In this document: piece after piece, positions 3,466 through 60,122 of the stretch
How the letters are laid out: every line of letters starts with the position of its first letter
Position numbering within the stretch: the first letter of the stretch is position 1
Assembly: GCA_903910705.1 (NCBI GenBank)
Contig: CAIWAN010000083.1
Coordinates: 1 to 60,357, forward strand
DNA from: an uncultured Candidatus Marinamargulisbacteria bacterium
Lineage (GTDB): Bacteria > Margulisbacteria > Riflemargulisbacteria > GWF2-35-9
Direction: 5' to 3'
DNA: 60,357 nucleotides
The notes under the pieces: model-generated
Database searches by the model: none
What the model was told of the DNA's origin: nothing
The model's input: only the letters and a program-made list of their open reading frames with translations
Position numbers and translations under genes: made by a program

Positions 3466-3513
3466 AATTGAGGATATTATAGCATAGCGACTCGCTTACA
3501 TGTTATTATCGAG

Positions 3514-17787: not shown

Positions 17788-17851
17788 GCAAATATTATCG
17801 GTGTTTTTATAACGATTGACAAGCATCATCGTGACTTCTAAAATTAGCGCC

Positions 17852-19087: not shown

Positions 19088-19088
19088 C

Positions 19089-32173: not shown

Positions 32174-32175
32174 AT

Positions 32176-32865: not shown

Positions 32866-32995
32866 AGCAAAAATTTTAACAATATTGCCAATAAACCGCA
32901 ATAAGATTCGCTGACAATGGATTAGTCGACCCTCTGTTTTTTCTGCTTATTATCGAAAAATTGTCAACAATTTTACGTTTTATTGAAATATGCCC

Positions 32996-33024
32996 TTGAA
33001 AGTGGCGTGGTTGCTGAGTATGAT
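32996..33024 (+). promoter_or_regulatory. sigma70-like promoter TTGAAA-17 nt-TATGAT upstream of the acyltransferase gene
   Basis: TTGAAA at 32996..33001 and TATGAT at 33019..33024. GGGAGA RBS at 33035..33040, ATG at 33045. Confidence 0.35.
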
Positions 33025-33044
33025 ATTTTTTGCAGGGAGAAAAC

Positions 33045-33836: not shown

Positions 33837-34405
33837 ATAAAAAGATTTCAATAGTTGTTGATTTCGATGGAACAATAGTTAAAACGACTATATATGACCC
33901 AATTATTATTTTTTTTAGAAAACATAAGTTCGGACATCTAATATTTATTTTATATTTCTTTTCCCCTTTAATCTTCGTACTTGACAGAATAAATCGATCA
34001 TTTCATCTTAAACTATATTATCTTCTATTCCACGATATTCTTTCATCTTTTGACGCTTTTGATGAGTATTTTCAATATTTAGATAGTCGGCCAATTTTGG
34101 CAACTCAAGATTTTTTAAAGAAGTATGCTAACGCAAATATATTAATTATTTCAACAAGTTCGTCAATTATTGATAGGTATATCCAAGAAAGGTTCAATCC
34201 AACAATGATATTTTCAATTGATGTAAATAACTTTAAGGCAGACAAGTCATTTTCTAAAAAAACCGCTATGCTATCAATTATGAAAAATGAAAACGCAAGG
34301 AGTTACTTCATTGGGATTGGCGATTCGAAGCAAGACTTAGACTTTATTAAATTATGCGATGAGGGATTCTTGGTTAAAAACGATGCCTTGATAAGAGTCA
34401 AATGA
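33812..34405 (+). CDS. HAD-superfamily (subfamily IB-like) hydrolase
   Basis: Motif I 'VVDFDGT', motif II 'IISTSS', motif IV 'GIGDSKQDLDF'. No in-frame ATG lies near the N-terminus, so the start (TTG at 33812, overlapping the upstream gene) is uncertain. Confidence 0.55.
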   Translation: MQAGAFIINKKISIVVDFDGTIVKTTIYDPIIIFFRKHKFGHLIFILYFFSPLIFVLDRINRSFHLKLYYLLFHDILSSFDAFDEYFQYLDSRPILATQDFLKKYANANILIISTSSSIIDRYIQERFNPTMIFSIDVNNFKADKSFSKKTAMLSIMKNENARSYFIGIGDSKQDLDFIKLCDEGFLVKNDALIRVK

Positions 34406-47168: not shown

Positions 47169-48134
47169 TTATAAATTTATATTTTCAGACAAATGATCAA
47201 AACCCCGAGGAAGCGGTATTGTTTGCCCGGATTGGATTAAGTAATATTCTTGGGTTAACGTCATCGTACCGATCGCTGTCAGAGGGGTTTCAAAGGGCCA
47301 CTCAGATTGAAGCCTCTCGCTATTCACTTCGGAAACCGTAAACATCAATTCATAGTCTTCCCCCCCTCGCAGGGCACACTCGATAAGAGAGGCCGAAAGC
47401 AATCCCTCATAAGCGATTGAAGCCGGATGCAAAGGGATCGTGTCGGCATTAATCGTCACCCCACATTGACTTGACATGGCCAGATGACGGGCTTCGGACG
47501 CAACGCCATCACTGATGTCGATCATGCTTGAGGCGAAGTCTTTTAGGAAAACACCTTCCGCAACACGGGCCGTGGGTCGAGCCAGTCGTTCGAAAAGTTC
47601 ATCAGGGGGTTGTTTGCCGTTTTTCAGCAATAATCGGGCCACACAGGCGCTCCCGACATCGCCCGTTACCATAACGATATCCCCAACAGATGCACCCCCT
47701 CGATAGACGACTTTATTCGGTGATTCGCCCAATAGTGTCGCCGTTAACGATAAGGTCTGGCCGTGCGTAATATTCCCGCCCATTAAAGAGATGTGATGTT
47801 TTTGACAGATTGGCCGCATGCCCGCATACAGACGCGCTACCCATTCAGAGTCGGTCGCATCATCAAGCACTAGGGAAATATATAGAAAGGTCGGGGTGGC
47901 GCCCATCGAGGCCACATCGCTGACGTTGCTCATCAAAAATCGATGTCCGATCTGTTCGGGTGTAAACCAATCCTTTAAGAAATGATCGCCCTCGACCATG
48001 CTATCGGTCGTCAGAACCCGAAGTTGATCACCTTCTCGCCAAACTGCGCAATCATCACCAATGCCTTTAACAATATTGGACTGAAATAAAGGAAAATCGC
48101 GGGTTATATGATCGATGAGATTAAATTCATTCAC
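47169..48134 (-). CDS. thiL: thiamine-monophosphate kinase
   Basis: 'NEFNLIDHI', 'GIGDDCAV', 'TTDSMVEGDHF' and 'DISDG' are ThiL/AIR-synthase-family motifs. Preferred start is the GTG at 48134, overlapping the thiC stop (TAGTG). The ATG at 48170 would overlap thiC by 37 nt. Confidence 0.85.
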   Translation of the reverse strand: MNEFNLIDHITRDFPLFQSNIVKGIGDDCAVWREGDQLRVLTTDSMVEGDHFLKDWFTPEQIGHRFLMSNVSDVASMGATPTFLYISLVLDDATDSEWVARLYAGMRPICQKHHISLMGGNITHGQTLSLTATLLGESPNKVVYRGGASVGDIVMVTGDVGSACVARLLLKNGKQPPDELFERLARPTARVAEGVFLKDFASSMIDISDGVASEARHLAMSSQCGVTINADTIPLHPASIAYEGLLSASLIECALRGGEDYELMFTVSEVNSERLQSEWPFETPLTAIGTMTLTQEYYLIQSGQTIPLPRGFDHLSENINL

Positions 48135-49354
48135 TATTTTAAGGCACAAAACTCGCCACACATGGTACATGCATCGAGTCCGGCAGGGATGTTCTTTCGA
48201 TATTTATCGAATGAATCGGGATCAAGTGCCGTTGCTTTTTGAGTCGGCCAGTCCAATTTACCTCGTGCTTCTGACATCTTTCGATCACGATCCCAATCCT
48301 TGCCACGCGTCAAATCAACCGCATGAGCCGCGATCTTAAAGGCGATGATACCGTCCTTAACGTCCGCAAGGCTAGGCGAAGAAAGATGCTCAGAGGGGGT
48401 AACATAACAAAGAAAGTCCGCGCCGGCCATGCCCGCAATCGTCGCCCCAATGGCAGCGGTAATATGGTCATACCCTGCCCCAATGTCCGTTACCAATGGC
48501 CCTAAGATATAAAAAGGAGCCCCGAAGCAATACTCTTTTTGGAGTTGGACATTGAGCGCGATTTTATGGGCGGGAATGTGCCCCGGCCCCTCAACCATCG
48601 ATTGAACACCTGCCTCGCGACAACGAAGCACTAATTGGCCAATATTTTTGAGCTCTTGGATTTGTGCCTCATCGGTTTCGTCTATAATGGTCGCTGGTCG
48701 CATGCCATCACCCAAGGAGATGGTCATGTTATATCGCTTACAAACGTCAAGGATTTGATCAAAATGAGTAAAAAGAAAATTCTCTTTTTGAAACTTTTCC
48801 ATCCATCGGATCAACATCGATCCGCCGCGACTGGTGACTTTGATCAGACGGCTTTTAACCAGCTCTAAATGTTCCATTAATAGGCCTGCATGGATAACGA
48901 CAAAATCAACGCCATCTTTGCCATTCTCTTCTAAGATCTCAAGGAAGGGCTCGATCATGTTCTGCGGATAATCACTATGTCGAAAGAAAAGCTCGTATAA
49001 TGGAACCGTTCCCACCGGCATGGATGAGGCGGCGACAATTTCGCGACGGATTCGACGACTATCGTCACCCAGCGACAAGTCCATAATGCAATCAACATCG
49101 TATCGCTCGCAAAGTTTGACCTTTTCGAGTTCTGCTTCAAGGCTGCTGCACGCAGGCGACACCCCGATATTGGCGTTCATTTTGACCCTAAGTCCCTCAC
49201 CTACGGCCACAGGCTTTACATTGGAATGGATCGGATTAACCAAAATAACGTGTTTACCGCTTTGAATACCCGCCTTTATGGTGTCAACGGGGACGCCTTC
49301 TTTTTGGGCGACTTGTTCGATAATGGCGGGTGTTAATGCTTTTGGAATATTCAT
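48134..49354 (-). CDS. thiC: phosphomethylpyrimidine synthase (short-form ThiC)
   Basis: Radical-SAM ThiC C-terminus 'CTMCGEFCALK', 'EGPGHIP', 'GPLVTDIGAGYDHI'. Start set to 'MNIPKAL' (49354). The ORF extends to 49414. Confidence 0.9.
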   Translation of the reverse strand: MNIPKALTPAIIEQVAQKEGVPVDTIKAGIQSGKHVILVNPIHSNVKPVAVGEGLRVKMNANIGVSPACSSLEAELEKVKLCERYDVDCIMDLSLGDDSRRIRREIVAASSMPVGTVPLYELFFRHSDYPQNMIEPFLEILEENGKDGVDFVVIHAGLLMEHLELVKSRLIKVTSRGGSMLIRWMEKFQKENFLFTHFDQILDVCKRYNMTISLGDGMRPATIIDETDEAQIQELKNIGQLVLRCREAGVQSMVEGPGHIPAHKIALNVQLQKEYCFGAPFYILGPLVTDIGAGYDHITAAIGATIAGMAGADFLCYVTPSEHLSSPSLADVKDGIIAFKIAAHAVDLTRGKDWDRDRKMSEARGKLDWPTQKATALDPDSFDKYRKNIPAGLDACTMCGEFCALK

Positions 49355-49384
49355 GATGAACGGGGGTATGTTAGCATAAGTCGT

Positions 49385-50356
49385 ATGGATATTATAGTGC
49401 GTGTGATCGATCATTTAGGGGACGCAGGGGTCGGATGGCGTCTGGCTATAGCCCTTAAACGAAGTCGGCCACATGAAAATATTCGAATTATTACCGATTC
49501 GCTCGATATTTTCTCTTGGATAGTCTCTCCGGAAGAAAATGACCTCGTTGATATCCTATGTTTTGATGATCTGTCTCCTGATACTTTTGTTTTTTCGTCG
49601 GTCATTCTTGAGTCGCTTGGATGCCGCATACCCGATCCTTTTCGAGATATCGCTTATATCCAAGCCAAAACCATCCTTCATATTGAAGCGCTTTCTGCCG
49701 AACCATGGGTCGAGAATGTTCATGGGAAGGAATCCTTGCTGGGGACACCGGCTCGACGTTTTATCCTGAGTACAGGGTTTACGCCACGCACCTTAGGATT
49801 ATTGCCGGCGATACCACTATCCATGGACAGAGCGACTTTTATTCAGTCGTTTGACCTTCACTTTAATCCCAATTTGATCTGGATCGTTGTCTATACCTAT
49901 GACCTTGATCTTGTGACGTGGAAAGATGCAGCCAAAAAAATGGACATGGACATTGAATTCATTGTTTTAAAGGATATGCCTCGTATCCCTCAACGAGCGT
50001 TCGACACCCTTCTTTCGCTGAGCGACCTTAACATCGTTCGAGGAGAAGACTCCTTCGCCACCTCGCTGCAATGCGGCATTCCGACCCTTTGGCAGGCCTA
50101 TCGTCAAGACGATCAAGTCCATCACCAGAAAGTCGAAGCTTTTCTATCATGGGCAAATCAAGCCACAGGGGAATGGCCCAAAATTTGGTTGGATATGATG
50201 CGACGCATGAATGACATACTACCCCCACCCTCAATTAATGAAATTGTCAGTCTTCTCAAACAGTTGCCCCTTTTAAAACAAAAGGCCATGCAAATACAGC
50301 AAGCCTTGAGATCGTTGGGTAATTTTGCGGAGAATTTCATGAAAAGCCTCCCCTAA
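49385..50356 (+). CDS. earP: EarP-family EF-P arginine glycosyl(rhamnosyl)transferase
   Basis: N-terminal 'IIVRVIDHLGDAGVGWRLA' matches EarP 'DIFCRVVDNYGDIGVxWRLA' (both catalytic Asp present). 'NIVRGEDSF' matches the EarP donor-binding 'VRGEDSF'. 323 aa. Confidence 0.8.
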   Translation: MDIIVRVIDHLGDAGVGWRLAIALKRSRPHENIRIITDSLDIFSWIVSPEENDLVDILCFDDLSPDTFVFSSVILESLGCRIPDPFRDIAYIQAKTILHIEALSAEPWVENVHGKESLLGTPARRFILSTGFTPRTLGLLPAIPLSMDRATFIQSFDLHFNPNLIWIVVYTYDLDLVTWKDAAKKMDMDIEFIVLKDMPRIPQRAFDTLLSLSDLNIVRGEDSFATSLQCGIPTLWQAYRQDDQVHHQKVEAFLSWANQATGEWPKIWLDMMRRMNDILPPPSINEIVSLLKQLPLLKQKAMQIQQALRSLGNFAENFMKSLP

Positions 50357-50387
50357 CAGGGGAGGTGGCACGAAGTGCTGGTGGGGT
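50341..50387 (+). repeat. copy 1 of a ~46-nt double-hairpin repeat (overlaps the earP stop codon)
   Basis: GAAAAGCCTCCCCTAACAGGGGAGGTGGCACGAAGTGCTGGTGGGGT. Hairpin A is CCTCCCCT-AAC-AGGGGAGG and hairpin B is GGCAC-GAA-GTGCT. The earP TAA lies in the loop of hairpin A. Confidence 0.85.
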
Positions 50388-50436
50388 CATTAACGACATA
50401 ATCTGTCAGCAACCCCTCTGTCAGCAAAGCTGACAT

Positions 50437-50453
50437 CTCCCCTAACAGGGGAG
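50437..50453 (+). repeat. partial copy (hairpin A only) of the repeat
   Basis: CTCCCCTAACAGGGGAG. Preceded by the direct repeat CTGTCAGCAA x2 and the hairpin TGTCAGC-AAA-GCTGACA (50419..50435). Confidence 0.8.
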
Positions 50454-50515
50454 ACTATGATACGGAACAAAGAAAGAGTGCGAGTGCGACCGTGCCAACA
50501 GATCTTCACAATAAG

Positions 50516-50562
50516 GAAAAGCCTCCCCTAACAGGGGAGGTGGCGCGTAGCGCCGGTGGGGT
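50516..50562 (+). repeat. copy 2 of the ~46-nt double-hairpin repeat
   Basis: GAAAAGCCTCCCCTAACAGGGGAGGTGGCGCGTAGCGCCGGTGGGGT. Hairpin B here is GGCGC-GTA-GCGCC. It differs from copy 1 at 4 positions. Confidence 0.85.
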
Positions 50563-50578
50563 TTATAATACTCGGCAA

Positions 50579-51841
50579 ATGAACCAAACCATTCTTGATC
50601 TGATTTGTTATCTCCCCGCCAAATTGTATCTTCTCCTGACGCGTCTCCACGATCATATTAATCGACAGCGTTCTCGCAAACAGATGAGACTTGAGGGAAT
50701 GGACATCAAGATTGAGACAACTCTTTCGAAGAATATCAAAAAGAGAATCCTCTTCTATCATATTTCAGGTCTAAGTTTTGGGGGGACAGAAAAACATCTA
50801 CAAATCTTGGCAAAACATATCGATAAAACGGTTTTTGATGTTTTTTTTCTTTATTCACCAAAGTCAACAGGGGATAATAACGATCGCTCCAACTATTTCA
50901 AGCAGTCTGGTGTTACGCTGATCCCCTTTAACTACGATTACGTTGAGAAAGAATATCCCTACATCGTCCATGGTACTGACCCGAGTATTTTCGAGGTTAT
51001 TCGTCGGTTTCATATTGATTTAATGGTGACAGCCGATGCAGGGTACGCGCATTTCCCTATCAACCTAATCCAAGATATTCCCATTGTTTTGATCAATGTC
51101 TTTGGGGCCATCCATAATCAAGACAATATTATGGCCAATATTGGCGTATCAAAAATGATCACGAATAAAATTTGCCCTTTTGTTCCCCAAAATAAGCTAT
51201 ATAGGATGTATGTTCCTTCCGAAGGTCCTGATGTAGGGGCAAAAGAACGGGGACTTGCCCTTCGACATCAACTCAACATCAAGGATACGGATATGGTATT
51301 TGGCCGGATCGGTCGTGCCAGTGATAGCATTTTTGACCCTATTGGGATTCGGGCCTTTAAACGCTTAGTCGCGGAAGATGCAACCGTTCATTACCTCATT
51401 ATGTCCCCTCCTCCTGCCCTTGAAAAAATAGTTAAAGACGACGCAATCCCCAATATTCATTTTCTTGCCCCCACGTCAAAGGAAAGCGAAGTCTGGGCTT
51501 TTCATAACGCCATTGATGCCCTTGCTCATTTCAGAAAAGATGGGGAAACCTTTGGCCTCAATATTGCAGAGGCGATGTTATGTGGAAAGCCCATTTTGAC
51601 CCATATTTCGAAGGTGGATAACGCCCATTTGGAATATTTAGAGCCTGCCTTTAGCCGGGTGGCATCGGTTGATAGCGTTACCGAGTATTACCAAAACATG
51701 AAATCGTTTACCCAGTATAAAATTGATGGAACGTTAATAGAAATGGGCAAACTGGCTAAAATTCAGGCGGACAAACTTTTCTTGATCAACACGGCGATCA
51801 TTCAATTTGAGACGATTCTTCGTCCCCTGCTTAAACCTTAG
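50579..51841 (+). CDS. GT4-family (GT-B fold) glycosyltransferase
   Basis: 'ILFYHISGLSFGGTEKH' N-terminus and the 'GETFGLNIAEAMLCGKPIL' EX7E-type motif. The start is uncertain (Met at 50579, 50684 or 50699). The ORF's 5' part (50492..50578) lies within the repeat element and is probably not coding. Confidence 0.75.
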   Translation: MNQTILDLICYLPAKLYLLLTRLHDHINRQRSRKQMRLEGMDIKIETTLSKNIKKRILFYHISGLSFGGTEKHLQILAKHIDKTVFDVFFLYSPKSTGDNNDRSNYFKQSGVTLIPFNYDYVEKEYPYIVHGTDPSIFEVIRRFHIDLMVTADAGYAHFPINLIQDIPIVLINVFGAIHNQDNIMANIGVSKMITNKICPFVPQNKLYRMYVPSEGPDVGAKERGLALRHQLNIKDTDMVFGRIGRASDSIFDPIGIRAFKRLVAEDATVHYLIMSPPPALEKIVKDDAIPNIHFLAPTSKESEVWAFHNAIDALAHFRKDGETFGLNIAEAMLCGKPILTHISKVDNAHLEYLEPAFSRVASVDSVTEYYQNMKSFTQYKIDGTLIEMGKLAKIQADKLFLINTAIIQFETILRPLLKP

Positions 51842-51846
51842 ATTTC

Positions 51847-52599
51847 TCAAAGTTTCTTATATTTATTCAAATCCCCTTGGGTCGTCGTGGGTTGAGCTAA
51901 ATCTTTTAAATTATCCATTGATTCAAGTTCGTTTAAAAGCTTAACATTATTTTCATAATTCGCATGCTTATTTTTATCAAATTTTGTCCGTGAATGGTGT
52001 AAATGATGACAGGTGTAAGGAAGCACAACCGTTTTTTTGTTTAGTCTTTTCAACTTCACGGAAACCGCGTCATCTTCGGCTCCCCACCCACGAAAACGTT
52101 CATCCCAACCCCCGATATCTTTGAGACATTTACGAGTAAATGCAACAATGCCACTACAAAAACACGCGAATTGACGACGTCGAAAGGGAAAACTGGCGAA
52201 AAATCGGGAAACGGAATAAAGCATTGTTTGAAAGCGTGTCAGATCGATCAATCTCGTAAAAGGTTTAACACTTTCAACGCCTGACTTTAATAGATCGATC
52301 GCTTTTTGCAAAGCTTCTAAAGGTAGGATCATGTCATTATCTCCACAAAAAATCAAATCATGGGTTGCCGCGTTAATGCCGATATTAACTGCCCACGATT
52401 TATTAAAGATACCATCATTAAAGGCAAAAATATAGTTGGCCCCTTTCAATTCGACTTGTTCTTGAACACGGGGCTCGCTATCTTGTTCAACCACAATAAC
52501 CTCAAAACCAAGAGGCATAAGCCAATCAAGCACAAGACTTAAATTCCTGTCTCGACTTCCCTTGTCCGATCGATGGGTAATAATATAGCTTACGTTCAT
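51847..52599 (-). CDS. GT-A fold glycosyltransferase (GT2 / beta-1,4-galactosyltransferase-like)
   Basis: 'VSYIITHR' start, DxD-like 'CGDNDMIL', and 'GWGAEDDAVSVKL', which resembles the galactosyltransferase C-terminal 'GWGGEDDD' motif. Confidence 0.65.
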   Translation of the reverse strand: MNVSYIITHRSDKGSRDRNLSLVLDWLMPLGFEVIVVEQDSEPRVQEQVELKGANYIFAFNDGIFNKSWAVNIGINAATHDLIFCGDNDMILPLEALQKAIDLLKSGVESVKPFTRLIDLTRFQTMLYSVSRFFASFPFRRRQFACFCSGIVAFTRKCLKDIGGWDERFRGWGAEDDAVSVKLKRLNKKTVVLPYTCHHLHHSRTKFDKNKHANYENNVKLLNELESMDNLKDLAQPTTTQGDLNKYKKL

Positions 52600-53499
52600 C
52601 TACACTTTACCCTGAATGATTTTCCAGATGATCTCCATCGGGTTATAGTCATTTAGCGCCTTACCTTTCGCTCGTTTAATAGCCGGTAGTCGCTGCTCCC
52701 AAAGTTTATCTTTGATCGATCTTGATATAATGTCTAAAGAAGCTGCTGGTTGCGTTATATCGATCTTAACATAGGACTCTGGGTCAAAGAAATCGTTCAT
52801 ATTCGTACAGCCATCATAAAAAATAAGCGATTCAAAAAATAGCGCATCCAAAAATTTCTCTGTAAAATATCCCTGCTCAAAATCATTTTCACAGTTAAAG
52901 TGATACCTATAGGGAATAATGCCATCTTCTTTATGCTCTAGCGGTCCAAGAAAGTGCTTCATCTGTGAAAAATCACCTCGGCCAAAATGATCGTAGCCTT
53001 CTAAATTATTTAGCTCTCGAACCATGTTAAGACGAAGTTTATGTCCCATTAATGCATCATTACCTGACACGATACCACTCATCAATTTGGTCTTATTTTT
53101 GCTAAAATCAGTCTTCGCTATATCCGCATATGTCCTCGAATGGAACCATTTATCTACGCTATGGTATTGATTCGTATCGTAAACAAAAAAATAATTTTCC
53201 CCAGGATTAAACCCAAACAAGGTATAGGCCTTTTTTCGAATATGGTCTCGTGTCGTTTTTGTTTCAGCGTTTAAGACAATTGTTTTCTTCGGATCATAAA
53301 AAGGATGTCGAGGAAAATTGAAGATGACAAAGAAATCATAATGATTACTGAGAGTAAGTTCGATATCTTTCCAGATATAGTCACCCTGTGGACAGCATCG
53401 ATTAAGATGTTGCCTGAGCGTCACATCATCACACCAGTTGGTGTGCGCTTTGACTTTAATGCGATTCAATGGAGTCGAGGACCTTTGTCCATGTGTCAT
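52600..53499 (-). CDS. GT10-like (alpha-1,3/4-fucosyltransferase-like) glycosyltransferase
   Basis: 'YRYHFNCENDFEQGYFTEKFLDALFFESLIFYDG' aligns to the GT10 signature 'YKFxLAFENSxxxGYVTEKxxDAxxxxxIPIYWG'. The rest of the protein was not assignable by eye. Confidence 0.6.
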   Translation of the reverse strand: MTHGQRSSTPLNRIKVKAHTNWCDDVTLRQHLNRCCPQGDYIWKDIELTLSNHYDFFVIFNFPRHPFYDPKKTIVLNAETKTTRDHIRKKAYTLFGFNPGENYFFVYDTNQYHSVDKWFHSRTYADIAKTDFSKNKTKLMSGIVSGNDALMGHKLRLNMVRELNNLEGYDHFGRGDFSQMKHFLGPLEHKEDGIIPYRYHFNCENDFEQGYFTEKFLDALFFESLIFYDGCTNMNDFFDPESYVKIDITQPAASLDIISRSIKDKLWEQRLPAIKRAKGKALNDYNPMEIIWKIIQGKV

Positions 53500-54385
53500 A
53501 ATTCGACGTTAATCCAAACGATTTTGAATCCACGACAGTATAGATGAAATGTTTATACTCCATACAGAATTTGGAATACGGTTCCACTTTTTTACCAAGG
53601 ATTTTAGCGAGAAACAAGATGAAATCAATGAAGATAGGGATTTTGATAAAGACTTTATATCCATAATATTTGGCTGTCTCATTAACAAGTGCATCCAACG
53701 TCGTCGCCGGATTGCCCAACACATAATCGGTTTGCGTCGCCTCATGAGTAAGCAAATATAGGGTTATCTTTGCGATATCATCCGCATGGATAAAATGGAA
53801 TGACCCTTCAATCGAAATAAACCTCGCCCATTTAATAAATGAACGGGCGGTTTTGAGCCCTTCCCCAATATGGGAATACTGATGTTTGCTATCCCCCGAA
53901 AGCACCATGGTTGGAAATAACGTGATGATCTTGTTGTGAAGAGGATGGTCTTTTAAGGTAACGTACAGATCATATTTGCTTTTGATATAGCCGGTTCCAT
54001 ATTGGTTGGCCTCTGGGAGCAACTGATTGCCCCGCCCCAAAACAGATGCGGTTGAAAAAATGATGATCTTTTCAATAATCTTTGGGTTAACATAGGACAG
54101 CATTTCAAGAGTTTGCTTTCGATTCACCGAGTTATCATCGTCGTTTCTATCCACCCAATTTGTTGCCAAATGAAGGATACTCTCACATTTAAAAATAATA
54201 TCTTTATGTTCTGAAATGGTTTCGAGCGTACCCATTACCAGATGAATGTTTTTTGCTGCTTTGACCTCAGGGGCTAATTTTTCAGGTTTTGAGATAAGGG
54301 CATAAACCTCAAAATTAGTTTTAACAAGGTGATCCGCTAAATATGATCCGACTGCGCCAGTTAGTCCCGTAACAAATATATTCAT
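53456..54385 (-). CDS. NAD(P)-dependent epimerase/dehydratase-family (extended SDR) protein
   Basis: Rossmann 'IFVTGLTGAVGSYL' and catalytic YxxxK 'YIKSK'. Start trimmed to 'MNIFVTG' (54385). The 3' end overlaps the GT10-like start by 44 nt. Confidence 0.75.
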   Translation of the reverse strand: MNIFVTGLTGAVGSYLADHLVKTNFEVYALISKPEKLAPEVKAAKNIHLVMGTLETISEHKDIIFKCESILHLATNWVDRNDDDNSVNRKQTLEMLSYVNPKIIEKIIIFSTASVLGRGNQLLPEANQYGTGYIKSKYDLYVTLKDHPLHNKIITLFPTMVLSGDSKHQYSHIGEGLKTARSFIKWARFISIEGSFHFIHADDIAKITLYLLTHEATQTDYVLGNPATTLDALVNETAKYYGYKVFIKIPIFIDFILFLAKILGKKVEPYSKFCMEYKHFIYTVVDSKSFGLTSNYDTWTKVLDSIESH

Positions 54386-54407
54386 GATGCAGTATATATT
54401 ATCATAT

Positions 54408-54437
54408 TTGTCACAATTGCTGTGCATTTGGTACAAT
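54408..54437 (+). promoter_or_regulatory. sigma70-like promoter TTGTCA-18 nt-TACAAT upstream of efp
   Basis: TTGTCA at 54408..54413 and TACAAT at 54432..54437. AAGGAG RBS at 54457..54462, ATG at 54471. Confidence 0.4.
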
Positions 54438-54470
54438 ACGCAAACAGTTCGCAACAAAGGAGTCTTTATT

Positions 54471-55037
54471 ATGAAGTTTGCAAATGAAGTTCGTGCCGGA
54501 AATATTATTAAAGTGGGTCGAGACTTGTGGCTCGTATTGAAAGCCGATTATTATCGTGCTGCCCGCAAAGAAGCCACGGTTGAAATGAAACTGAAAAACA
54601 TTGATACAGGCAACACCACCGCGACCGTTTACAAACTGGATGACAAACTCGACGAAGTCCGTTTGGATAAGAAACCGATCCAATTCCTTTATAAGGTTAA
54701 TGACACGTATAGCTTTATGGATCAAGAGAATTTTGAGCAGTTTGATATTAACAAAGAAGACCTGGGAAACAGCATCTATTTTATTAAAGAAGATGACATG
54801 CTGGATATGATGTTCTATGAAGGTCGTCCGCTCAATGTCGAATTGCCTAACGCTATTGATCTAAAAATCACCTATACCGAGAATGGTGTTCGCGGTGACA
54901 CCTCGGGCAAGGTGATGAAGCCCGCCACGCTCGAAACAGGCCTTGAGGTATCCGTTCCGATGTTTTGTGATATCGACGATGTCATTCGTGTTGATACGGC
55001 CACATTAGAATATAAAGAACGCGTCAAAGGCAAGTAA
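54471..55037 (+). CDS. efp: elongation factor P (Arg32, EarP-type)
   Basis: 188 aa. The C-terminus '[51 protein letters not shown]' is close to Pseudomonas-type EF-P. Residue 32 is Arg, within 'YYRAARKEA'. Start trimmed to the ATG behind the AAGGAG RBS. Confidence 0.92.
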
Positions 55038-56185
55038 TGTCTGGCAAAGTAGCCCTCATCACCGGCATCACCGGACAAGATGGTGCTTATTTGGCCGAGT
55101 TATTGCTGAGCAAGGGCTATACGGTTCATGGTTTAAAGCGTCGGGCGTCTCTTTTTAATACGGAGCGGATCGATCATCTTTATCAAGACCCCCACGAGAA
55201 AGCTGTTAAGCTTCATCTTCACTACAGCGATCTAACCGATAGCACCAATTTGATTCGTATCATTCAAGAAGTTCAGCCCGATGAGATCTACAATTTAGCG
55301 GCCATGAGTCATGTCCATGTCAGTTTTGATACGCCTGAATACACAGGAAATGCAGATGGACTCGGTACCCTTCGTCTACTTGAAGCGATCCGTTTACTGG
55401 GTTTGACTAAAAAGACGCGGATATATCAAGCATCGACCAGTGAGCTTTACGGAAAGGTACAAGAGATCCCTCAAAAGGAAACAACCCCTTTTTACCCTCG
55501 AAGCCCCTATGCCGTTGCAAAGATGTATGCCTACTGGATAACCGTAAATTACCGCGAAGCCTATAACATGTTTGCCTGTAATGGCATTCTTTTTAACCAT
55601 GAGAGTCCTCTTCGAGGTGAAACGTTTGTCACCCGAAAGATCACCCGTGCGATCGCTAATATCGCCATCGGAGTGGAACATAAATTATTTCTCGGCAACC
55701 TCGATTCCAAACGAGATTGGGGACACGCCAAAGACTATGTTGAAGCCATGTGGTTGATCTTGCAACAAGATAAACCTGATGATTTTGTTATCGCTACGGG
55801 GGTCACTACGCCCGTTCGCGACTTTGTTAGCAAAGCTTTTCAGCATATTGGAGTGACCCTTTCGTTCTCAGGAAAAGGTGAACATGAAAAGGGAATCATC
55901 GATATTATCGATAAAAAAAGGTTCGAATCGATAACAGGCATCGAGGGTCTCAATATGAAAAAGGGCGATGTCGTTGTTGAAGTTGATAAACGATATTTTC
56001 GTCCCACCGAAGTTGACCTGCTTATTGGCGATGCGACCAAGGCAAAGACGGTTCTGGGATGGACGCCGAAGATCGCGCTTGATCAACTGATCGTTGAAAT
56101 GGTGGACACTGATATTTTGGCGGTCCGCAAAAAACAGGTTCTCAAAACCCATGGATATGAGATATTAAATCAATGGGGCGTCTAG
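55037..56185 (+). CDS. gmd: GDP-mannose 4,6-dehydratase
   Basis: '[27 protein letters not shown]', '[10 protein letters not shown]', '[17 protein letters not shown]'. Its start overlaps the efp stop (TAATG). Confidence 0.93.
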
Positions 56186-57255
56186 ACACTCGTCAGAAGA
56201 TCTATATCGCTGGACATCGAGGACTTGTTGGTAGTGCGATCGTTCGCAAGTTCCTGTCCATGGGCTTTAACAACATTATCGCTCAGACACGCGAAGAACT
56301 CGATCTTCTTAATCAAGCTGGGGTAGACGCTTTTTTTGCAAAAGAAAAACCCGACATCGTCGTGTTGGCTGCCGCTAAAGTGGGGGGTATTCAAGCCAAT
56401 GATACGTTTCGAGCCGACTTTATCTATGAAAACCTGCAAATTCAAAACAATATCATTCATAACAGTTTTGTTTCAGGTGTCCAACGACTCTTGTTCTTGG
56501 GTAGCAGCTGCATCTATCCCAAACGTTGCCCCCAACCGATCAAAGAGGAATACTTGCTGACCGGCGATCTAGAACCGACCAATGAGCCCTACGCCATCGC
56601 CAAGATCGCAGGGCTTAAAATGTGCGAAAGTTACAATCGCCAATATGGAACACGATTCCTCTCCGTCATGCCTACCAATCTATACGGGCCCAACGATAAT
56701 TATAATCTTGAAACCTCTCATGTTCTTCCCGCCATGATCCGAAAGTTTACGCTGGGAGTTTTACTAGAGCGTCAGGATTTCAATGGAATTAAACAGAACT
56801 TCAAGATCAATCGCCTCTCAGAAAAAGGCACCTTTTTATCTCCGGTTGAGATCGATAAACTTTCAAAGTTTGATATCATTAATATTCTAAAAAATTATGG
56901 CATTGAGAAAGCGTTAACCCTCTGGGGAAGTGGAACACCCCGACGCGAATTTCTCCACGTCGATGATTTGGCCGAGGCCTGCGCCTTTCTTCTTTCTCAA
57001 AACGATGATGAACTGGATGCGGTTAAGGATCAACATCTGAATATTGGTGTCGGGAACGATATTTCCATAAAAGAACTCGCGGATATGATCAAAGAAATAT
57101 CTCAGTTCAAAGGCGATATTCATTGGGATGCCAGCAAACCGGATGGGACACCTCAAAAGTTGCTCGATGTCAGCCGAATCAATAAATACGGATGGCAAGC
57201 AAAAATTTCGCTAAAAGACGGTATATCTGCCTTATTTAATCAAAAATCACCCTAG
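56173..57255 (+). CDS. fcl: GDP-L-fucose synthase (GDP-4-keto-6-deoxy-D-mannose 3,5-epimerase/4-reductase)
   Basis: '[14 protein letters not shown]', '[12 protein letters not shown]', 'YAIAKIAG', '[11 protein letters not shown]'. Overlaps gmd by 13 nt. Confidence 0.9.
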
Positions 57256-57626: not shown

Positions 57627-59780
57627 CTACATTTTCTTTAAACTAATTCGCTTCCTCGTTATATCAAGATCTAGGACTTTAACCGAAACACTCTCCCCTA
57701 CCGAAACAACAGTTGTGGGGTCTTTGACAAAGGTGTCGCTCAACTGCGAGATATGAATGAGCCCATCTTGATGAACACCGATATCGACAAAAGCACCAAA
57801 GTTGGTCACATTCGTCACAATACCGTTAAGGATCATCCCCTCTTTTAGGTCTTTGATTGCATTAATATCCTCTCGAAAAGCAGCGTACTTAAACTCCGCA
57901 CGCGGGTCTCGTCCGGGTTTGCTCATTTCAACAACGATATCCTTTAAGGTCGGCAAACCGACCAATGCGGTCATAAAATCAGAAAGATGAAGCTGGGCAA
58001 GTGATTCAGGACGTTGGATAAGTGCCTCTACGGTCATATCAAGCGCTGAAGCCATTTGTTTGACAACAGGATATGATTCAGGGTGGATCGCTGTATTGTC
58101 GAGCGGATTCGTGCTTTGGCGGATTCTCAAAAACCCTGCACATTGCTCAAACGCTTTAGCGCCGAGCTTGGGAACCTTTTTTAACTGTGTCCGATTCGTA
58201 AAGGCGCCGATCTCATGACGGAAAGCCACGATATTCTTGGCGAGTGTTGGTCCGATACCCGAAACATGTGACAACAGAGAAAACGAAGCGGTGTTGAGGT
58301 CAACGCCCACATGGTTGACGCATTGCTCGACCATAAAATCGAGAGACACTTTTAAATGGCCTTGGTCAACATCATGCTGATATTGCCCGACCCCAATGGA
58401 TTTCGGATCGATCTTGATCAATTCCGCAAGCGGGTCTTGAAGCCGGCGAGCGATGCTAATGGCGCCTCGGATGGTCAGATCAAGGTTGGGGAATTCCTCT
58501 CGGGCGACATCGGAAGCAGAATAAATGGAGGCGCCCGATTCATTAACCAGAACAGCACGAGCAGTCAGTTGATGGTTGGATATCACTGATTTGATAAAAA
58601 GGTCGGTTTCTTTGGATGCGGTTCCATTACCGATCGCGACATATTTGATGTCATATTTGGCAAAGAGCTTCATGATATCGACAGCGGACTTTACCGGATC
58701 TTGCGTTGGGTAGATCGTCACGGTCTCTTTAAACGTCCCTGTTTCATCAATAATGGCACATTTACAGCCGGTTCTAAACCCTGGATCAACCCCTAAGATA
58801 GTCGCTGCGCCAACGGGAGCGGCCATGAGTAGATTCTTCAAGTTCCCCGAGAAAACAGCGATGGATTCTTTTTCAGCCTCAGCGATCTTTACGTTAAAAC
58901 ACTCATTTTCGATCGAAGGAAAGATCAATCGTTTAAAGCTGTCTTCGATAGCTGCTACGAGCTCTTTTTCAAAAGGAGCCTGCTTATGTGGAAGAACGCG
59001 AGTAGTCAAGAAATCCAGACATTTTCCGGTATCGATCTCAAGGCTCCAATGGATGACTTTCTCGGCTGCCGCTCTTCGTATGGCAAGGATGCGATGAGCT
59101 GGCGAATTTTGAAGACGCCCACTGAATTGATAATACATTTCGTATTTAGAAGGTTTATCCTTCCACTCTTTGGTCACGGTTGAGATCAGCACCCCTTGCG
59201 TTTGCGTTAACTGACGAACAAACAAGCGATAGTGAGCATCGCTAGAGACATGCTGCGCGATGATATCTTTTGCGCCTAAAAGCGCATCCTCGATCGTCTT
59301 GATCTTGTCGTCGTTGAGAAACGTTTTAAGCAACGCGTCTTTGCTTACAGGAAGCGGTTTCCCCGATAACATTAGATCCGCTAAAGGCTGCAACCCTTGA
59401 GCAATAGCCCGATCAGCACGGGTGGTTTTGTGGGGTTTGTAGGGTAAATAGATGTCTTCTAAGATCAGTCGATCGGTGCAGTTATCAATTTGATCTTGAA
59501 GCTCGGGGGTTAATTTCCCTAGCTCCGCTAAGGTCTTAAAGATGGTTGCCTTGCGGATGGCCATTTCTTTGAGCTCTTCGAACCGTTGTTTGATCTTTTG
59601 GATCTGGACTTCATCCAAATTCCCAGTACGTTCTTTTCGATAACGCGCGATAAAGGGAATCGTCGCCCCCTCATCAAGCAATGCTAAGACCTGCTTAACA
59701 TTTTGAAGTGCTAATGCCTGCTCTTTTGAAATGATGAGATCGATAGACACAATGCGATTATAGCATCGAAAAGAACTCAT
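57627..59780 (-). CDS. tex: transcription accessory protein Tex (S1-domain RNA-binding protein)
   Basis: 'LLDEGATIPFIARYRKERTGNLDE' Tex N-terminus, a YqgF/RuvC-like centre, HhH, and a C-terminal S1 domain 'GMILNGIVTNVTNFGAFVDIGVHQDGLIHISQL'. At 717 aa from Met115 of the ORF, this is a normal full-length Tex. Confidence 0.9.
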   Translation of the reverse strand: MSSFRCYNRIVSIDLIISKEQALALQNVKQVLALLDEGATIPFIARYRKERTGNLDEVQIQKIKQRFEELKEMAIRKATIFKTLAELGKLTPELQDQIDNCTDRLILEDIYLPYKPHKTTRADRAIAQGLQPLADLMLSGKPLPVSKDALLKTFLNDDKIKTIEDALLGAKDIIAQHVSSDAHYRLFVRQLTQTQGVLISTVTKEWKDKPSKYEMYYQFSGRLQNSPAHRILAIRRAAAEKVIHWSLEIDTGKCLDFLTTRVLPHKQAPFEKELVAAIEDSFKRLIFPSIENECFNVKIAEAEKESIAVFSGNLKNLLMAAPVGAATILGVDPGFRTGCKCAIIDETGTFKETVTIYPTQDPVKSAVDIMKLFAKYDIKYVAIGNGTASKETDLFIKSVISNHQLTARAVLVNESGASIYSASDVAREEFPNLDLTIRGAISIARRLQDPLAELIKIDPKSIGVGQYQHDVDQGHLKVSLDFMVEQCVNHVGVDLNTASFSLLSHVSGIGPTLAKNIVAFRHEIGAFTNRTQLKKVPKLGAKAFEQCAGFLRIRQSTNPLDNTAIHPESYPVVKQMASALDMTVEALIQRPESLAQLHLSDFMTALVGLPTLKDIVVEMSKPGRDPRAEFKYAAFREDINAIKDLKEGMILNGIVTNVTNFGAFVDIGVHQDGLIHISQLSDTFVKDPTTVVSVGESVSVKVLDLDITRKRISLKKM

Positions 59781-60122
59781 CGAAAAAACTCGTGAGTTAT
59801 CCTGAAAAAGAACGGGCATTGAAACGGGGGCATAAAAGGGCTCGATCTTATGGCAAAGCGAGATTAATTCCTTCTGAATCTTGTCGAGTTGATTTTCAGG
59901 AATCCCTTCTGGGGGCAAAACAGGGCGACCATCGGCTTCACCCACACCAATAATGATATAGCCACCGCCCCAATTATTGATATCATTAGCGAAAGCACAA
60001 AGGGTATGAAGCACGTCTTCAGGATTCCATCCCAATTTAAACTCTAATCGATCCCATTCGATGGCTTTACCGTGAATCAGTTGGTTAATGTTAACAGGGA
60101 GGCTCATACCGCTATCTACCAC
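59781..60122 (-). other. in-frame 114-codon N-terminal extension of tex encoding a truncated AlbA_2/Schlafen-type domain
   Basis: 'WDRLEFKLGW...LCAFANDINNWGGGYIIIGVGEADG' matches the AlbA_2 pattern. The domain stops short of its usual C-terminal strands and runs without a stop codon into the Tex N-terminus. Confidence 0.5.

What the first reader, a model, noticed from the sequence alone, without database searches (positions are those of the whole stretch)
49385..57255. EarP plus Arg32 EF-P module wired to GDP-fucose biosynthesis, with no dTDP-rhamnose genes visible
**Seen in the sequence.**
- ORF 49385..50356 carries the EarP signatures: N-terminal 'VIDHLGDAGVGWRLA' with both Asp, and 'VRGEDSF'.
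- efp (54471..55037) has Arg at exactly residue 32.
- The efp stop overlaps the gmd start (TAATG at 55035..55039), and gmd overlaps fcl by 13 nt. efp-gmd-fcl therefore looks like one translationally coupled operon.
- earP is separated from efp by four glycan genes.
- No rmlA/B/C/D-like ORF is in the window.

**Established knowledge.**
- EarP (GT104) transfers L-rhamnose from dTDP-beta-L-rhamnose (RmlABCD pathway) to EF-P Arg32.
- earP normally sits next to efp.
- Gmd plus Fcl make GDP-beta-L-fucose, which is also a beta-linked 6-deoxy-L-hexose.

**Inference.** This lineage may modify EF-P with a GDP-derived 6-deoxyhexose (arginine fucosylation). Alternatively, the neighbouring transferases may extend the Arg-linked sugar. 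Either would be undescribed. The dull alternative is that a surface-glycan cassette simply landed between earP and efp.
Basis: partly seen in the sequence, partly recalled or inferred. Interest (0 to 1): 0.8.

Follow-up and report, generated by a model that had tools for sequence, protein, structure and literature searches.

The report
EarP–EF-P embedded in fucose-glycan cluster
A divergent but intact EF-P arginine-glycosylation pair (earP, efp) in a Marinamargulisbacteria genome sits inside a cell-envelope fucose-glycan gene cluster, so efp shares an operon with the GDP-fucose genes; this is most likely a genomic rearrangement, not a new EF-P modification, although arginine fucosylation is not excluded.

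Summary
Every sequence observation checks out. There is a divergent EarP (49385-50356), an Arg32 EF-P (54471-55037), a TAATG efp/gmd overlap, a 13-nt gmd/fcl overlap, four glycan genes between earP and efp, and no rml gene in the window.

The organism is a Marinamargulisbacteria relative. The efp-gmd-fcl trio is kept in every lineage seen with EF-P at least 92% identical. None of 158 ordinary EarP loci has gmd or fcl nearby.

The functional reading is weak, for four reasons:
- More distant relatives with the same EarP/EF-P type (L001, L171) have plain earP-efp and no gmd.
- A related genome (L173/L174) carries the same six glycan genes (gmd, fcl, SDR, GT10-like, GT2/7C, GT4) next to thiC-thiL, an LPS heptosyltransferase-like gene, an MsbA-like exporter and a membrane glycosyltransferase-like protein. 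It has no earP or efp within 10 kb.
- A Clostridia MAG (L177) also links the GT10-like gene to gmd-fcl without efp.
- The cluster therefore has its own GDP-fucose consumer.

Start/stop overlaps are the norm in this window. EarP keeps all but one of the dTDP-rhamnose-contact residues checked, and the exception (F252 to R) lies in a variable column.

Whether the genome has rmlABCD could not be tested. Best reading: ordinary Arg32 glycosylation plus a rearranged envelope-glycan locus (about 0.75). Arginine fucosylation: about 0.08.

The parts
49385..50356 (+). earP: a divergent, shortened EF-P arginine glycosyltransferase (GT104), 323 aa
   Evidence: - Pfam PF10093 176.5 bits. TIGR03837 168.7 bits, below its 347 cut-off.
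- AF2 pLDDT 92; TM 0.84 to N. meningitidis EarP 5wxk.
- D9/D13, Y172, Q203, F206, R219-G-E221-D222-S223 and Y239 match the P. putida catalytic and donor residues.
- It lacks one beta-alpha unit of the C-domain.
- dN/dS is 0.17-0.19.
50347..50540 (.). Three copies of a palindromic element, CTCCCCTAACAGGGGAG, in the earP-GT4 spacer
   Evidence: -: 3 matches against 0 expected by chance.
- The same spacer holds a DUF559 gene in the P0002 lineage.
- It is probably a hairpin, terminator-like or REP-like element marking a rearrangement-prone junction.
50492..51841 (+). GT4-like (GT-B, Glycos_transf_1) glycosyltransferase; the true start is probably near 50579
   Evidence: - Pfam PF00534 26.5 bits and PF13692 26.4 bits, both borderline.
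- Orthologues: 80-94% in L002/L006 and 60% in L173, in the same position relative to thiC.
51847..52599 (-). GT2 / Glyco_transf_7C glycosyltransferase
   Evidence: - Pfam PF02709 40 bits and PF00535 36 bits.
- Orthologues: 92-94% in close relatives, 65% in L009, 52% in L173.
52600..53499 (-). GT10-like putative fucosyltransferase; relatives start at the equivalent of 53469
   Evidence: - Pfam PF00852 23.8 bits against a 23.9 cut-off.
- PDB H. pylori alpha1,3-FucT 2nzw, E 5.6e-4, over the C-terminal part of the enzyme, residues 222-282.
- It sits near gmd-fcl in three separate contexts: the window clade, L173/L174 and L177.
53456..54385 (-). SDR-family sugar epimerase/reductase of unknown specificity
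   Evidence: - Pfam PF01370 55 bits.
- Only weak N-terminal PDB matches, including GDP-6-deoxy-D-lyxo-4-hexulose reductase 2pk3, E 7e-4.
- 55-58% orthologues in L173/L174 next to the GT10-like gene.
54408..54437 (+). Promoter-like site for efp-gmd-fcl: TTGTCA, 18 nt, TG-TACAAT
   Evidence: -: 10/12 match with an extended -10 TG, 34 nt upstream of the efp ATG.
- No site of at least 9/12 inside efp.
- This is a consensus match only.
54471..55037 (+). efp: Arg32-type elongation factor P with loop YYRAAR32KEA
   Evidence: - TIGR00038 209.7 bits against 185.8.
- Arg32 and the loop are invariant in five relatives.
- dN/dS is 0.004-0.009.
55037..56185 (+). gmd: GDP-mannose 4,6-dehydratase; its start overlaps the efp stop (TAATG)
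   Evidence: TIGR01472 592 bits against 415.
56173..57255 (+). fcl: GDP-L-fucose synthase with an insertion of about 50 aa
   Evidence: - NF047922 439 bits against a 500 cut-off, matched as two stretches.
- PDB GDP-L-fucose synthases at E 1e-101 to 1e-103.
- The GSSCIYP, YAIAK and SHV motifs align with E. coli GFS.

Best explanation
The window comes from a relative of Candidatus Marinamargulisbacteria. It carries a divergent but functional EarP / Arg32 EF-P pair.

In one subclade this pair has become physically interleaved with a cell-envelope (LPS-type) fucose-containing glycan cluster:
- efp was joined once to the front of gmd-fcl and now drives them from its own promoter.
- The GT4, GT2/7C, GT10-like and SDR block lies between earP and efp.

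GDP-L-fucose made by Gmd and Fcl is consumed by the GT10-like fucosyltransferase and its partner transferases to build an envelope glycan. EarP glycosylates EF-P Arg32 independently, most likely with dTDP-beta-L-rhamnose made by genes elsewhere in the genome.

**Shown:** the gene identities, the conservation pattern, and the independence of the glycan set from earP/efp in relatives.

**Inferred:** co-transcription, the envelope target of the glycan, and the EarP donor.
For: 1. **Taxon.** The ThiC neighbour is 95% identical to a contig of MAG CAIUCY01, 'uncultured Candidatus Marinamargulisbacteria'.
2. **Canonical arrangement in relatives.** Relatives with the same RAAR32 EF-P loop have earP-efp and no gmd. 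These are L001 (EarP 44%, EF-P 71% identity) and L171, a second Marinamargulisbacteria MAG (EF-P 65%).
3. **The glycan genes form an independent unit.**
   - L173/L174 carry, in order: GT9 heptosyltransferase-like, MsbA-like (529 bits), gmd (72%), fcl (49%), four other genes, SDR (55%), GT10-like (62%), GT2/7C (52%), GT4 (60%), a polytopic membrane (GT-C-like) protein, thiC (66%) and thiL (53%).
   - The GT4 to SDR block and thiC-thiL are collinear with the window.
   - There is no earP or efp within 10 kb.
   - L177 (Clostridia MAG) also has the GT10-like gene within about 1.5 kb of gmd (60%) and fcl (51%), without efp.
4. **A single origin.** The efp-gmd junction is seen only in lineages with EF-P at least 92% identical (window, L002, L006, L008, L256, L257/258). 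The upstream neighbour varies: SDR, earP or thiL. The overlapping genes leave no neutral breakpoint.
5. **The overlap is not special.** Start/stop overlaps are the rule here: 23 of 33 same-strand pairs.
6. **Donor site.** EarP keeps the residues that contact dTDP-Rha in P. putida EarP (Y193, Q255, F258, R271, E273, D274, S275, Y291, with F191 replaced conservatively by Tyr) and the catalytic Asp pair. It is under purifying selection (omega 0.17-0.19).
7. **Recombination.** Mosaic dS and variable cassette content (DUF559, an extra GT2, DUF2079) are typical of recombining surface-glycan loci.
8. **rml absence is normal.** No RmlC or RmlD lies near earP in the 158 ordinary EarP loci.
Against: - The efp-gmd-fcl linkage is unique among all EarP loci sampled (0 of 158), and L008 shows a compact earP-efp-gmd run.
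- There is a published precedent for donor-pathway genes (rfbB/C/D) sitting beside a horizontally acquired earP-efp in Petrotogaceae (PMC11388002). Synteny with a sugar-nucleotide pathway can therefore be meaningful.
- EarP in the gmd-linked lineages is unusually diverged.
   - It is about 30% identical to ordinary EarPs and scores below the NCBIfam equivalog cut-off.
   - One beta-alpha unit beside the base pocket is missing or shortened.
   - The thymine-capping F252 is replaced by R, Q or H.
That is only about 200 kb of partly overlapping loci.
- The window cluster lacks an obvious initiating transferase, flippase or polymerase, so the envelope target is inferred from relatives.
Confidence: 0.75

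Rival explanations
1. Arginine fucosylation. [quoted passage not shown] The efp-gmd-fcl operon then supplies both the acceptor and the donor, giving alpha-L-fucosyl-Arg32 EF-P.
For: - efp-gmd-fcl is conserved through several upstream rearrangements.
- L008 has earP-efp-gmd contiguous, with a 4-nt overlap and a 2-nt gap.
- 0 of 158 other EarP loci has gmd or fcl.
- The thymine-capping F252 is R, Q or H in the gmd- or cassette-linked lineages, but L or F in the unlinked L001 and L171.
- A beta-alpha unit next to the base pocket is absent in the window, P0002, P0003 and P0005 and shortened in P0004 and P0006.
- Petrotogaceae show that donor-pathway genes can travel with earP-efp.
- Fcl keeps the epimerase/reductase residues, so the product is GDP-L-fucose, which is also a beta-L-6-deoxyhexose.
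Against: - gmd-fcl belongs with the same GT set in relatives that have no efp or earP nearby (L173/L174, L177). The cluster contains its own GT10-like consumer.
- The F252 column also varies (L, W, R, P) among ordinary proteobacterial EarPs.
- All other donor contacts are unchanged.
- The linkage is one evolutionary event and is absent from other Marinamargulisbacteria-type EarP/EF-P loci (L001, L171).
- No EF-P fucosylation has been reported. Where it was examined, the +146 Da sugar was rhamnose (PMC4739656).
Confidence: 0.08
2. Extended Arg-glycan. EarP adds the first sugar, and the neighbouring GT4, GT2/7C and GT10-like enzymes elongate it on EF-P.
For: Only physical proximity: the four genes lie between earP and efp and are conserved in close relatives.
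Against: - The same GT set occurs without earP or efp, next to LPS-core-type genes and a membrane GT-C-like protein, in L173/L174.
- L008 has earP-efp with no GTs between them.
- Cassette content varies between close lineages, while EF-P is 99-100% identical.
- From established knowledge of EF-P on the ribosome, the modification reaches into the crowded peptidyl-transferase centre. A multi-sugar chain is hard to accommodate there (inference).
Confidence: 0.02
3. Decaying or repurposed EarP. The shortened, fast-evolving EarP no longer modifies EF-P, and EF-P works unmodified or with another modification.
For: - EarP is the least constrained gene of the region (omega 0.17-0.19 against 0.004-0.14 for the others).
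- It is 42-46% identical between lineages whose EF-P is 92% identical.
- One beta-alpha unit is lost.
- The EF-P loop has Ala31, whereas P. putida EF-P G31A is rhamnosylated at under 1% of the wild-type rate (PMC6544042).
Against: - Omega is well below 1.
- All catalytic and diphosphate-binding residues are invariant across the clade.
- The model is confident and EarP-like.
- Arg32 and the whole loop are invariant.
- earP is retained in every lineage where the relevant DNA is visible.
Confidence: 0.05

Closest known systems
EarP / EF-P arginine-32 rhamnosylation (GT104; Shewanella, Pseudomonas, Neisseria; structures 5NV8, 5WXI-K, 6J7J-M)
   Same: - GT-B fold (TM 0.84).
- Catalytic Asp pair, the R-G-E-D-S motif, and the Tyr and Gln donor contacts.
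- An Arg32 EF-P with no Pro at position -2.
- earP directly upstream of efp in the nearest relatives (L001, L008, L171).
   Different: - About 30% identity; below the NCBIfam equivalog cut-off.
- 323 aa instead of about 375, with one C-domain beta-alpha unit missing.
- F252 replaced by R.
- Acceptor loop RAAR32KEA, with Ala31 instead of the Gly31 that P. putida needs.
- earP is 4.1 kb from efp.
- It occurs in Marinamargulisbacteria, a group that is not among the EarP-bearing taxa named in the main text of the one phylogenomic paper checked for it (PMC11388002).
- The donor is untested.
Petrotogaceae earP-efp co-located with rfbB/C/D (Brewer and Wagner 2024, PMC11388002)
   Same: An EarP-type efp lies beside genes of a 6-deoxy-L-hexose nucleotide-sugar pathway, outside the Proteobacteria.
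   Different: - There the linked pathway is the known donor pathway (dTDP-rhamnose).
- Here it is GDP-fucose.
- Here the linked pathway also occurs, with the same transferases, without efp or earP in relatives.
Gmd-Fcl (WcaG) GDP-L-fucose pathway with GT10 alpha1,3-fucosyltransferases in LPS/O-antigen and exopolysaccharide loci (for example H. pylori Lewis antigens, E. coli colanic acid)
   Same: - gmd and fcl are adjacent and overlapping.
- A GT10-like gene and other GTs lie in the same cluster.
- In L173/L174 the set lies beside heptosyltransferase-like and MsbA-like genes.
- Variable content and recombination are typical of surface-glycan loci.
   Different: - The GT10 match is borderline (23.8 against 23.9 bits).
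- The window cluster has no initiating transferase, flippase or polymerase.
- A translation factor gene heads the gmd-fcl operon.

Membership tests
EarP (GT104, Pfam PF10093 / NCBIfam TIGR03837) | Scores above the Pfam family gathering threshold | tested here: met
   176.5 bits against 25
EarP (GT104, Pfam PF10093 / NCBIfam TIGR03837) | Scores above the NCBIfam equivalog cut-off | tested here: not met
   168.7 bits against 347.05, matched as two stretches. This marks a divergent subfamily.
EarP (GT104, Pfam PF10093 / NCBIfam TIGR03837) | GT-B fold superposable on solved EarP structures | tested here: met
   AF2 pLDDT 92.3, pTM 0.90. Foldseek top 13 hits are all EarP, with TM 0.76-0.84.
EarP (GT104, Pfam PF10093 / NCBIfam TIGR03837) | Catalytic Asp pair (P. 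putida D13/D17), and R271, E273, D274, S275, Y193, Q255, F258, Y291 | tested here: met
   D9, D13, Y172, Q203, F206, R219, E221, D222, S223 and Y239. Mapped through the HMMER alignment to 5nv8 and the 25-sequence alignment.
EarP (GT104, Pfam PF10093 / NCBIfam TIGR03837) | Aromatic cap over the thymine base (P. putida F252) | tested here: not met
   The residue here is R200. The column is also L, W, R or P in some ordinary EarPs, so it is not diagnostic of a donor change.
EarP (GT104, Pfam PF10093 / NCBIfam TIGR03837) | Complete C-terminal Rossmann-like domain | tested here: not met
   About 40-50 residues (one strand-helix unit) between Y172 and R200 are absent in the window, P0002, P0003 and P0005. 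They are shortened in P0004 and P0006.
EarP (GT104, Pfam PF10093 / NCBIfam TIGR03837) | Cognate EF-P with Arg32 and no Pro at -2 | tested here: met
   The loop YYRAAR32KEA is invariant in five relatives. The rule comes from PMC6544042.
EarP (GT104, Pfam PF10093 / NCBIfam TIGR03837) | Gly31 in the acceptor loop (needed for efficient rhamnosylation of P. putida EF-P) | tested here: not met
   Ala31 is present here and in all Marinamargulisbacteria-type EF-Ps seen.
EarP (GT104, Pfam PF10093 / NCBIfam TIGR03837) | earP adjacent to efp | tested here: not met
   They are 4114 nt apart in the window. They are adjacent or overlapping in L001, L008 and L171.
EarP (GT104, Pfam PF10093 / NCBIfam TIGR03837) | Uses dTDP-beta-L-rhamnose, and the genome encodes RmlABCD | not testable with these tools
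   - Only the 60-kb contig and short related contigs are available.
- There is no rml in the window or in the related loci.
- The complete MAGs could not be queried.
Elongation factor P (TIGR00038) | Equivalog cut-off and three-domain architecture | tested here: met
   209.7 bits against 185.8. EFP_N, EFP and Elong-fact-P_C are all present.
GDP-mannose 4,6-dehydratase (TIGR01472) | Equivalog cut-off | tested here: met
   592.3 bits against 415
GDP-L-fucose synthase (NF047922) | Equivalog cut-off; Ser/Tyr/Lys triad plus the Cys and His epimerisation residues | tested here: inconclusive
   - 439 bits against 500, because an insertion of about 50 aa splits the match.
- E 1e-101 to 1e-103 to solved GDP-L-fucose synthases.
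- GSSCIYP, YAIAK and SHV align with E. coli GFS.
- The residue roles are taken from my own knowledge of E. coli GMER.
GT10 alpha1,3-fucosyltransferase (PF00852) | Family threshold and the GDP-fucose-binding C-terminal motif | tested here: inconclusive
   - 23.8 bits against 23.9.
- H. pylori FucT 2nzw, E 5.6e-4, over residues 187-247.
- Repeated co-location with gmd-fcl.
LPS / envelope glycan biosynthesis cluster | Linkage to lipid A-core or export genes, and membrane-associated transferases | tested here: inconclusive
   - Met in the relative L173/L174: heptosyltransferase-like 104 bits, MsbA-like 529 bits, a polytopic GT-C-like protein.
- Met in L002, which has DUF2079.
- In the window itself, only hldE at 16384-17853 is nearby.

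The most novel reading that the evidence does not exclude
In this Marinamargulisbacteria subclade, the shortened EarP has switched nucleotide-sugar donor and fucosylates EF-P Arg32 using GDP-beta-L-fucose made by the co-transcribed gmd-fcl. This would be the first EF-P arginine fucosylation and the first GDP-sugar-dependent GT104 enzyme.
Probability: 0.08. Interest if true: 0.8.

Novelty: new member of a known kind. Interest (0 to 1): 0.3.

Why it matters
**If the ordinary reading holds**, there are two modest gains.
- It adds Marinamargulisbacteria to the taxa carrying the EarP system. That group belongs to Margulisbacteria, a lineage neighbouring the Cyanobacteria (PMC6349859).
- It shows an unusually minimal EarP (323 aa, one Rossmann unit short) working on an Ala31 acceptor loop. 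This is useful for defining the true minimal determinants of arginine glycosylation.

It is also a cautionary example. Tight operon linkage of a translation factor with sugar-nucleotide genes can arise by a single rearrangement.

**If the minority reading holds**, it would reveal a new EF-P modification chemistry and a donor switch within GT104.

Tried and rejected
1. **F252 to R as evidence of a donor switch.** Rejected as diagnostic. The column is L, W, R or P in several ordinary EarPs.
2. **TAATG overlap as a special coupling signal.** Rejected. 23 of 33 same-strand neighbour pairs overlap in this window.
3. **Absence of rml in the window as evidence.** Rejected. 0 of 158 ordinary EarP loci has RmlC or RmlD within about 10 kb.
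4. **Searching GTDB genomes with the single EarP sequence.** It found nothing because the exact peptide patterns differ in the 85% relative. The clade alignment and ThiC then found CAIUCY01.
5. **Finding more clade members.** The GTDB scan found one genome and the metagenome scan one extra fragment, L090. The clade is rare.
6. **Testing whether the 462-aa protein at earP's position in L173 is a cryptic EarP.** hhalign probability was 0.1%. It is a polytopic membrane protein.
7. **Literature search for EF-P fucosylation or a GDP-sugar EarP.** None found.
8. **Direct test for rmlABCD in the MAGs.** Not possible.
9. **Rfam scan of the window.** Only three tRNAs.

Full report
**Observation**

- ORF 49385-50356 (+) encodes 323 aa with VIDHLGDAGVGWRLA and VRGEDSF. 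It hits Pfam EarP at 176.5 bits, but reaches only 168.7 bits against the NCBIfam equivalog cut-off of 347.
- Its AF2 model is confident (pLDDT 92.3). The 13 best PDB fold matches are all EarP, with TM up to 0.84.
- efp (54471-55037) has a good Shine-Dalgarno sequence and Arg at residue 32.
- Its TAA overlaps the gmd ATG (TAATG, 55035-55039).
- gmd (TIGR01472, 592 bits) overlaps fcl by 13 nt.
- Fcl is a true GDP-L-fucose synthase, with E 1e-101 to 1e-103 to solved enzymes and aligned catalytic motifs. It carries an insertion of about 50 aa that keeps it just under the NCBIfam cut-off.
- Between earP and efp lie a GT4-like gene (+), and on the other strand a GT2/GT7C, a GT10-like putative fucosyltransferase and an SDR.
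- No rml homologue is in the window.

**Who it is**

- The flanking ThiC is 95% identical to a contig of MAG CAIUCY01, 'uncultured Candidatus Marinamargulisbacteria'.
- The EarP belongs to a small clade whose members are 42-86% identical to it: P0002-P0006 and L090.
- Every other EarP found is at most about 36% identical. The nearest are in Chitinispirillia, Fibrobacter, Fusobacterium, Cloacimonadota and Burkholderiales.

**Synteny across relatives**

The table lists the arrangements seen, from closest to most distant relatives.

| Lineage | EF-P identity to the window | Arrangement |
|---|---|---|
| L002-L004 / L010 | 100% | thiC, earP, GT cassette, SDR, efp-gmd-fcl, HU, Tex; adds DUF559, GT2 and DUF2079 |
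| L005 / L006 | 99% | Same layout; adds an extra GT2 |
| L257 / L258 | 100% | Same layout where visible: GT10-like, SDR, efp-gmd-fcl |
| L256 | 98% | thiC-thiL-efp-gmd-fcl, all on one strand |
| L008 | 92% | earP-efp-gmd, contiguous |
| L009 | not visible | earP followed by GT2, GT2/7C and GT10-like on the opposite strand |
| L001 | 71% | Plain earP-efp, then unrelated genes |
| L171 (second Marinamargulisbacteria MAG) | 65% | Plain earP-efp, then unrelated genes |

- efp-gmd-fcl is therefore fixed within one shallow subclade, while the gene upstream of efp changes (SDR, earP or thiL).
- It is absent from the deeper lineages that share the same RAAR32 EF-P type.
- That pattern fits a single fusion event that was then inherited. 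Because the three genes overlap, there is no neutral breakpoint to separate them again.

**Uniqueness and background**

- tblastn of the window's Gmd and Fcl against 158 ordinary EarP loci (up to 10 kb each side) found no orthologue.
- E. coli RmlC and RmlD found nothing there either.
- So the gmd-fcl linkage is unique to this subclade. The lack of rml next to earP is normal and says nothing about the donor.

**The glycan genes are an independent unit**

This is the decisive comparison.
- The GT10-like protein has a 62%-identical homologue on L173/L174 (JGI 3300000230 and NCBI GCA_974328665.1).
- Its neighbourhood runs: heptosyltransferase-like GT9, MsbA-like ABC exporter (529 bits), gmd (72%), fcl (49%), Fic, two unknown genes, GT2, SDR (55%), GT10-like, GT2/7C (52%), GT4 (60%, opposite strand), a 462-aa polytopic membrane protein, thiC (66%) and thiL (53%). 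ArgJ, aconitase-family, patatin and AlbA_2 genes follow, and these also occur at 579-5762 of the window.
- The order thiL, thiC, [one gene], GT4, GT2/7C, GT10, SDR is collinear with the window. There the bracketed gene is earP; in L173 it is the membrane protein.
- That membrane protein is not an EarP (hhalign probability 0.1%).
- No earP or efp lies within 10 kb in L173/L174.
- In GTDB the closest homologue outside Marinamargulisbacteria is L177, a Clostridia MAG at 47%. It also sits within about 1.5 kb of gmd (60%) and fcl (51%), with no efp.
- Gmd and Fcl therefore have a resident consumer, the GT10-like transferase. In relatives they have an envelope/LPS context that does not need EF-P.

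**Operon evidence**

- A 10/12 promoter-like site with an extended -10 lies at 54408-54437, just upstream of efp.
- No site of at least 9/12 lies inside efp.
- Terminator-like hits are at chance level: 10 found against 8.0 expected.
- Co-transcription of efp-gmd-fcl is therefore likely.
- However, 23 of 33 same-strand neighbour pairs in this window overlap, mostly by 1 or 4 nt. In L173, gmd simply follows the msbA-like gene by 12 nt.
- gmd-fcl seems to ride on whatever stands upstream of it.

**Donor site of EarP**

I mapped the residues onto P. putida EarP (5NV8) using the HMMER alignment and the published contacts.

| P. putida residue | Role (Krafczyk et al. 2017) | Residue here |
|---|---|---|
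| D13, D17 | Catalytic Asp pair | D9, D13 |
| F191 | Aromatic cage around the base | Y170 |
| Y193 | Diphosphate contact, closes the pocket | Y172 |
| F252 | Cap over the thymine base | R200 |
| Q255 | H-bond to the nucleotide sugar 3'-OH | Q203 |
| F258 | Stacks on the nucleotide sugar | F206 |
| R271, E273, D274, S275 | Diphosphate binding and catalysis | R219, E221, D222, S223 |
| Y291 | Essential in vivo | Y239 |

- Only the F252 cap differs in kind. It is R in the window group, Q in L008 and H in L009, but L in L001 and F in L171.
- This loosely tracks the gmd/cassette linkage. The same column is also L, W, R or P in ordinary proteobacterial EarPs, so it is not diagnostic.
- The clade also lacks, or has shortened, one strand-helix unit between Y172 and R200.
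- EarP is under purifying selection (omega 0.17-0.19) but is the least constrained gene in the region. EF-P is extremely constrained (omega 0.004-0.009).
- The acceptor loop has Ala31. In P. putida, the G31A variant is rhamnosylated at under 1% of the wild-type rate (PMC6544042). Enzyme and acceptor have therefore co-diverged across the whole Marinamargulisbacteria group, including the lineages without gmd.

**Literature**

- No report of EF-P fucosylation or of a GDP-sugar-using EarP was found.
- When rhamnose and fucose were distinguished in N. meningitidis, the sugar was rhamnose (PMC4739656).
In Petrotogaceae, a horizontally acquired earP-efp sits beside rfbB/C/D (PMC11388002). Donor-pathway synteny does occur.

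**Verdict**

The most likely explanation (about 0.75) has two parts:
- An ordinary, if divergent, EarP/EF-P Arg32 glycosylation system.
- An envelope fucose-glycan locus that has been rearranged around it. efp was fused once to the head of gmd-fcl.

Mosaic dS values and variable cassette content fit a recombining surface-glycan locus.

| Reading | Probability |
|---|---|
| Ordinary EarP/EF-P plus a rearranged glycan locus | about 0.75 |
| Arginine fucosylation | about 0.08 |
| Inactive or repurposed EarP | about 0.05 |
| Elongation of the Arg-linked sugar by the neighbouring GTs | about 0.02 |

Arginine fucosylation stays open because the rml status of these genomes could not be tested, and because the linkage is unique. 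Elongation is very unlikely. An inactive EarP is unlikely given the invariant catalytic residues.

The decisive missing computation is an Rml HMM search of the complete MAGs. The decisive experiment is a donor comparison with the recombinant EarP/EF-P pair.

Noticed in passing
window 50341-50562: Three copies of a palindromic element, CTCCCCTAACAGGGGAG, lie 86-89 nt apart within a 47-nt direct repeat (91% identical) in the earP-GT4 spacer; 0 are expected by chance. The first copy overlaps the earP stop. The third lies inside the mechanical N-terminal extension of the GT4 ORF. In the P0002 lineage the same spacer holds a DUF559 gene.
   Followed up: partly
window 50222-50230 (EarP aa 280-282) and the GT4-like gene (MSPPPAL): Both EarP (ILPPPSI) and the GT4-like enzyme contain PPP motifs. 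Their translation should therefore itself depend on active EF-P, which could form a feedback loop for EarP. PPP is kept in P0002 and P0003, and is PP in P0004.
   Followed up: partly
window 48134-57255 compared with L002 and L006: Synonymous divergence is mosaic. For example, window against L006 gives dS 0.07-0.27 for thiC, GT4, SDR and gmd, but 0.45-0.64 for earP, GT2/7C, GT10, efp and fcl. Against L002 the pattern is reversed. This indicates homologous recombination within the locus.
   Followed up: partly
window 54471-55037; L001, L008, L171: All Marinamargulisbacteria-type EF-Ps have Ala at position 31 (loop RAAR32), where P. putida EF-P requires Gly31 for efficient rhamnosylation. The EarP and EF-P recognition surfaces appear to have co-diverged.
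   Followed up: partly
window 57627-60122 (-): The Tex ORF is 831 aa here against 707 aa in relatives. The extra N-terminal part of about 120 aa reads like the start of a Schlafen/AlbA_2 domain protein. It may be a gene fragment fused in frame or a mis-extended ORF. A separate AlbA_2 gene lies at 5160-5762.
   Followed up: no
window 32001-36000: GC drops to 0.34-0.38, against about 0.45 elsewhere, over genes for an acyltransferase, an unknown 197-aa protein and a 772-aa histidine kinase. This may be a foreign island.
   Followed up: no
window 5842-12646 and 13528-15585: There is a 1161-aa protein with a Rha78A-like Ig domain, followed by a FecR-like protein and a 779-aa protein with no family match. 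Nearby is a GH5 cellulase-family protein. Function unknown.
   Followed up: no
window 16384-17853 (-) and 18098-25693 (+): There is an HldE-like bifunctional heptose kinase/adenylyltransferase, which implies a heptose-containing LPS. There is also a MoxR, DUF58, VWA, BatD 'aerotolerance'-type operon.
   Followed up: no
L175 (JGI 3300037851, 136.8-kb contig) 9223-10837: The GT2/7C and GT10-like gene pair also occurs on a contig that looks viral: LAGLIDADG intein, thymidylate synthase, Macro domain, many methyltransferases, topoisomerase. The pair may therefore be a mobile two-enzyme glycan module.
   Followed up: no
L173/L174 5258-6322: A Fic-domain gene sits between fcl and the glycosyltransferase genes in the related glycan cluster. 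In L174, an AbiEii toxin-type gene and a nucleotidyltransferase/HEPN gene pair are inserted between the cluster and thiC.
   Followed up: no
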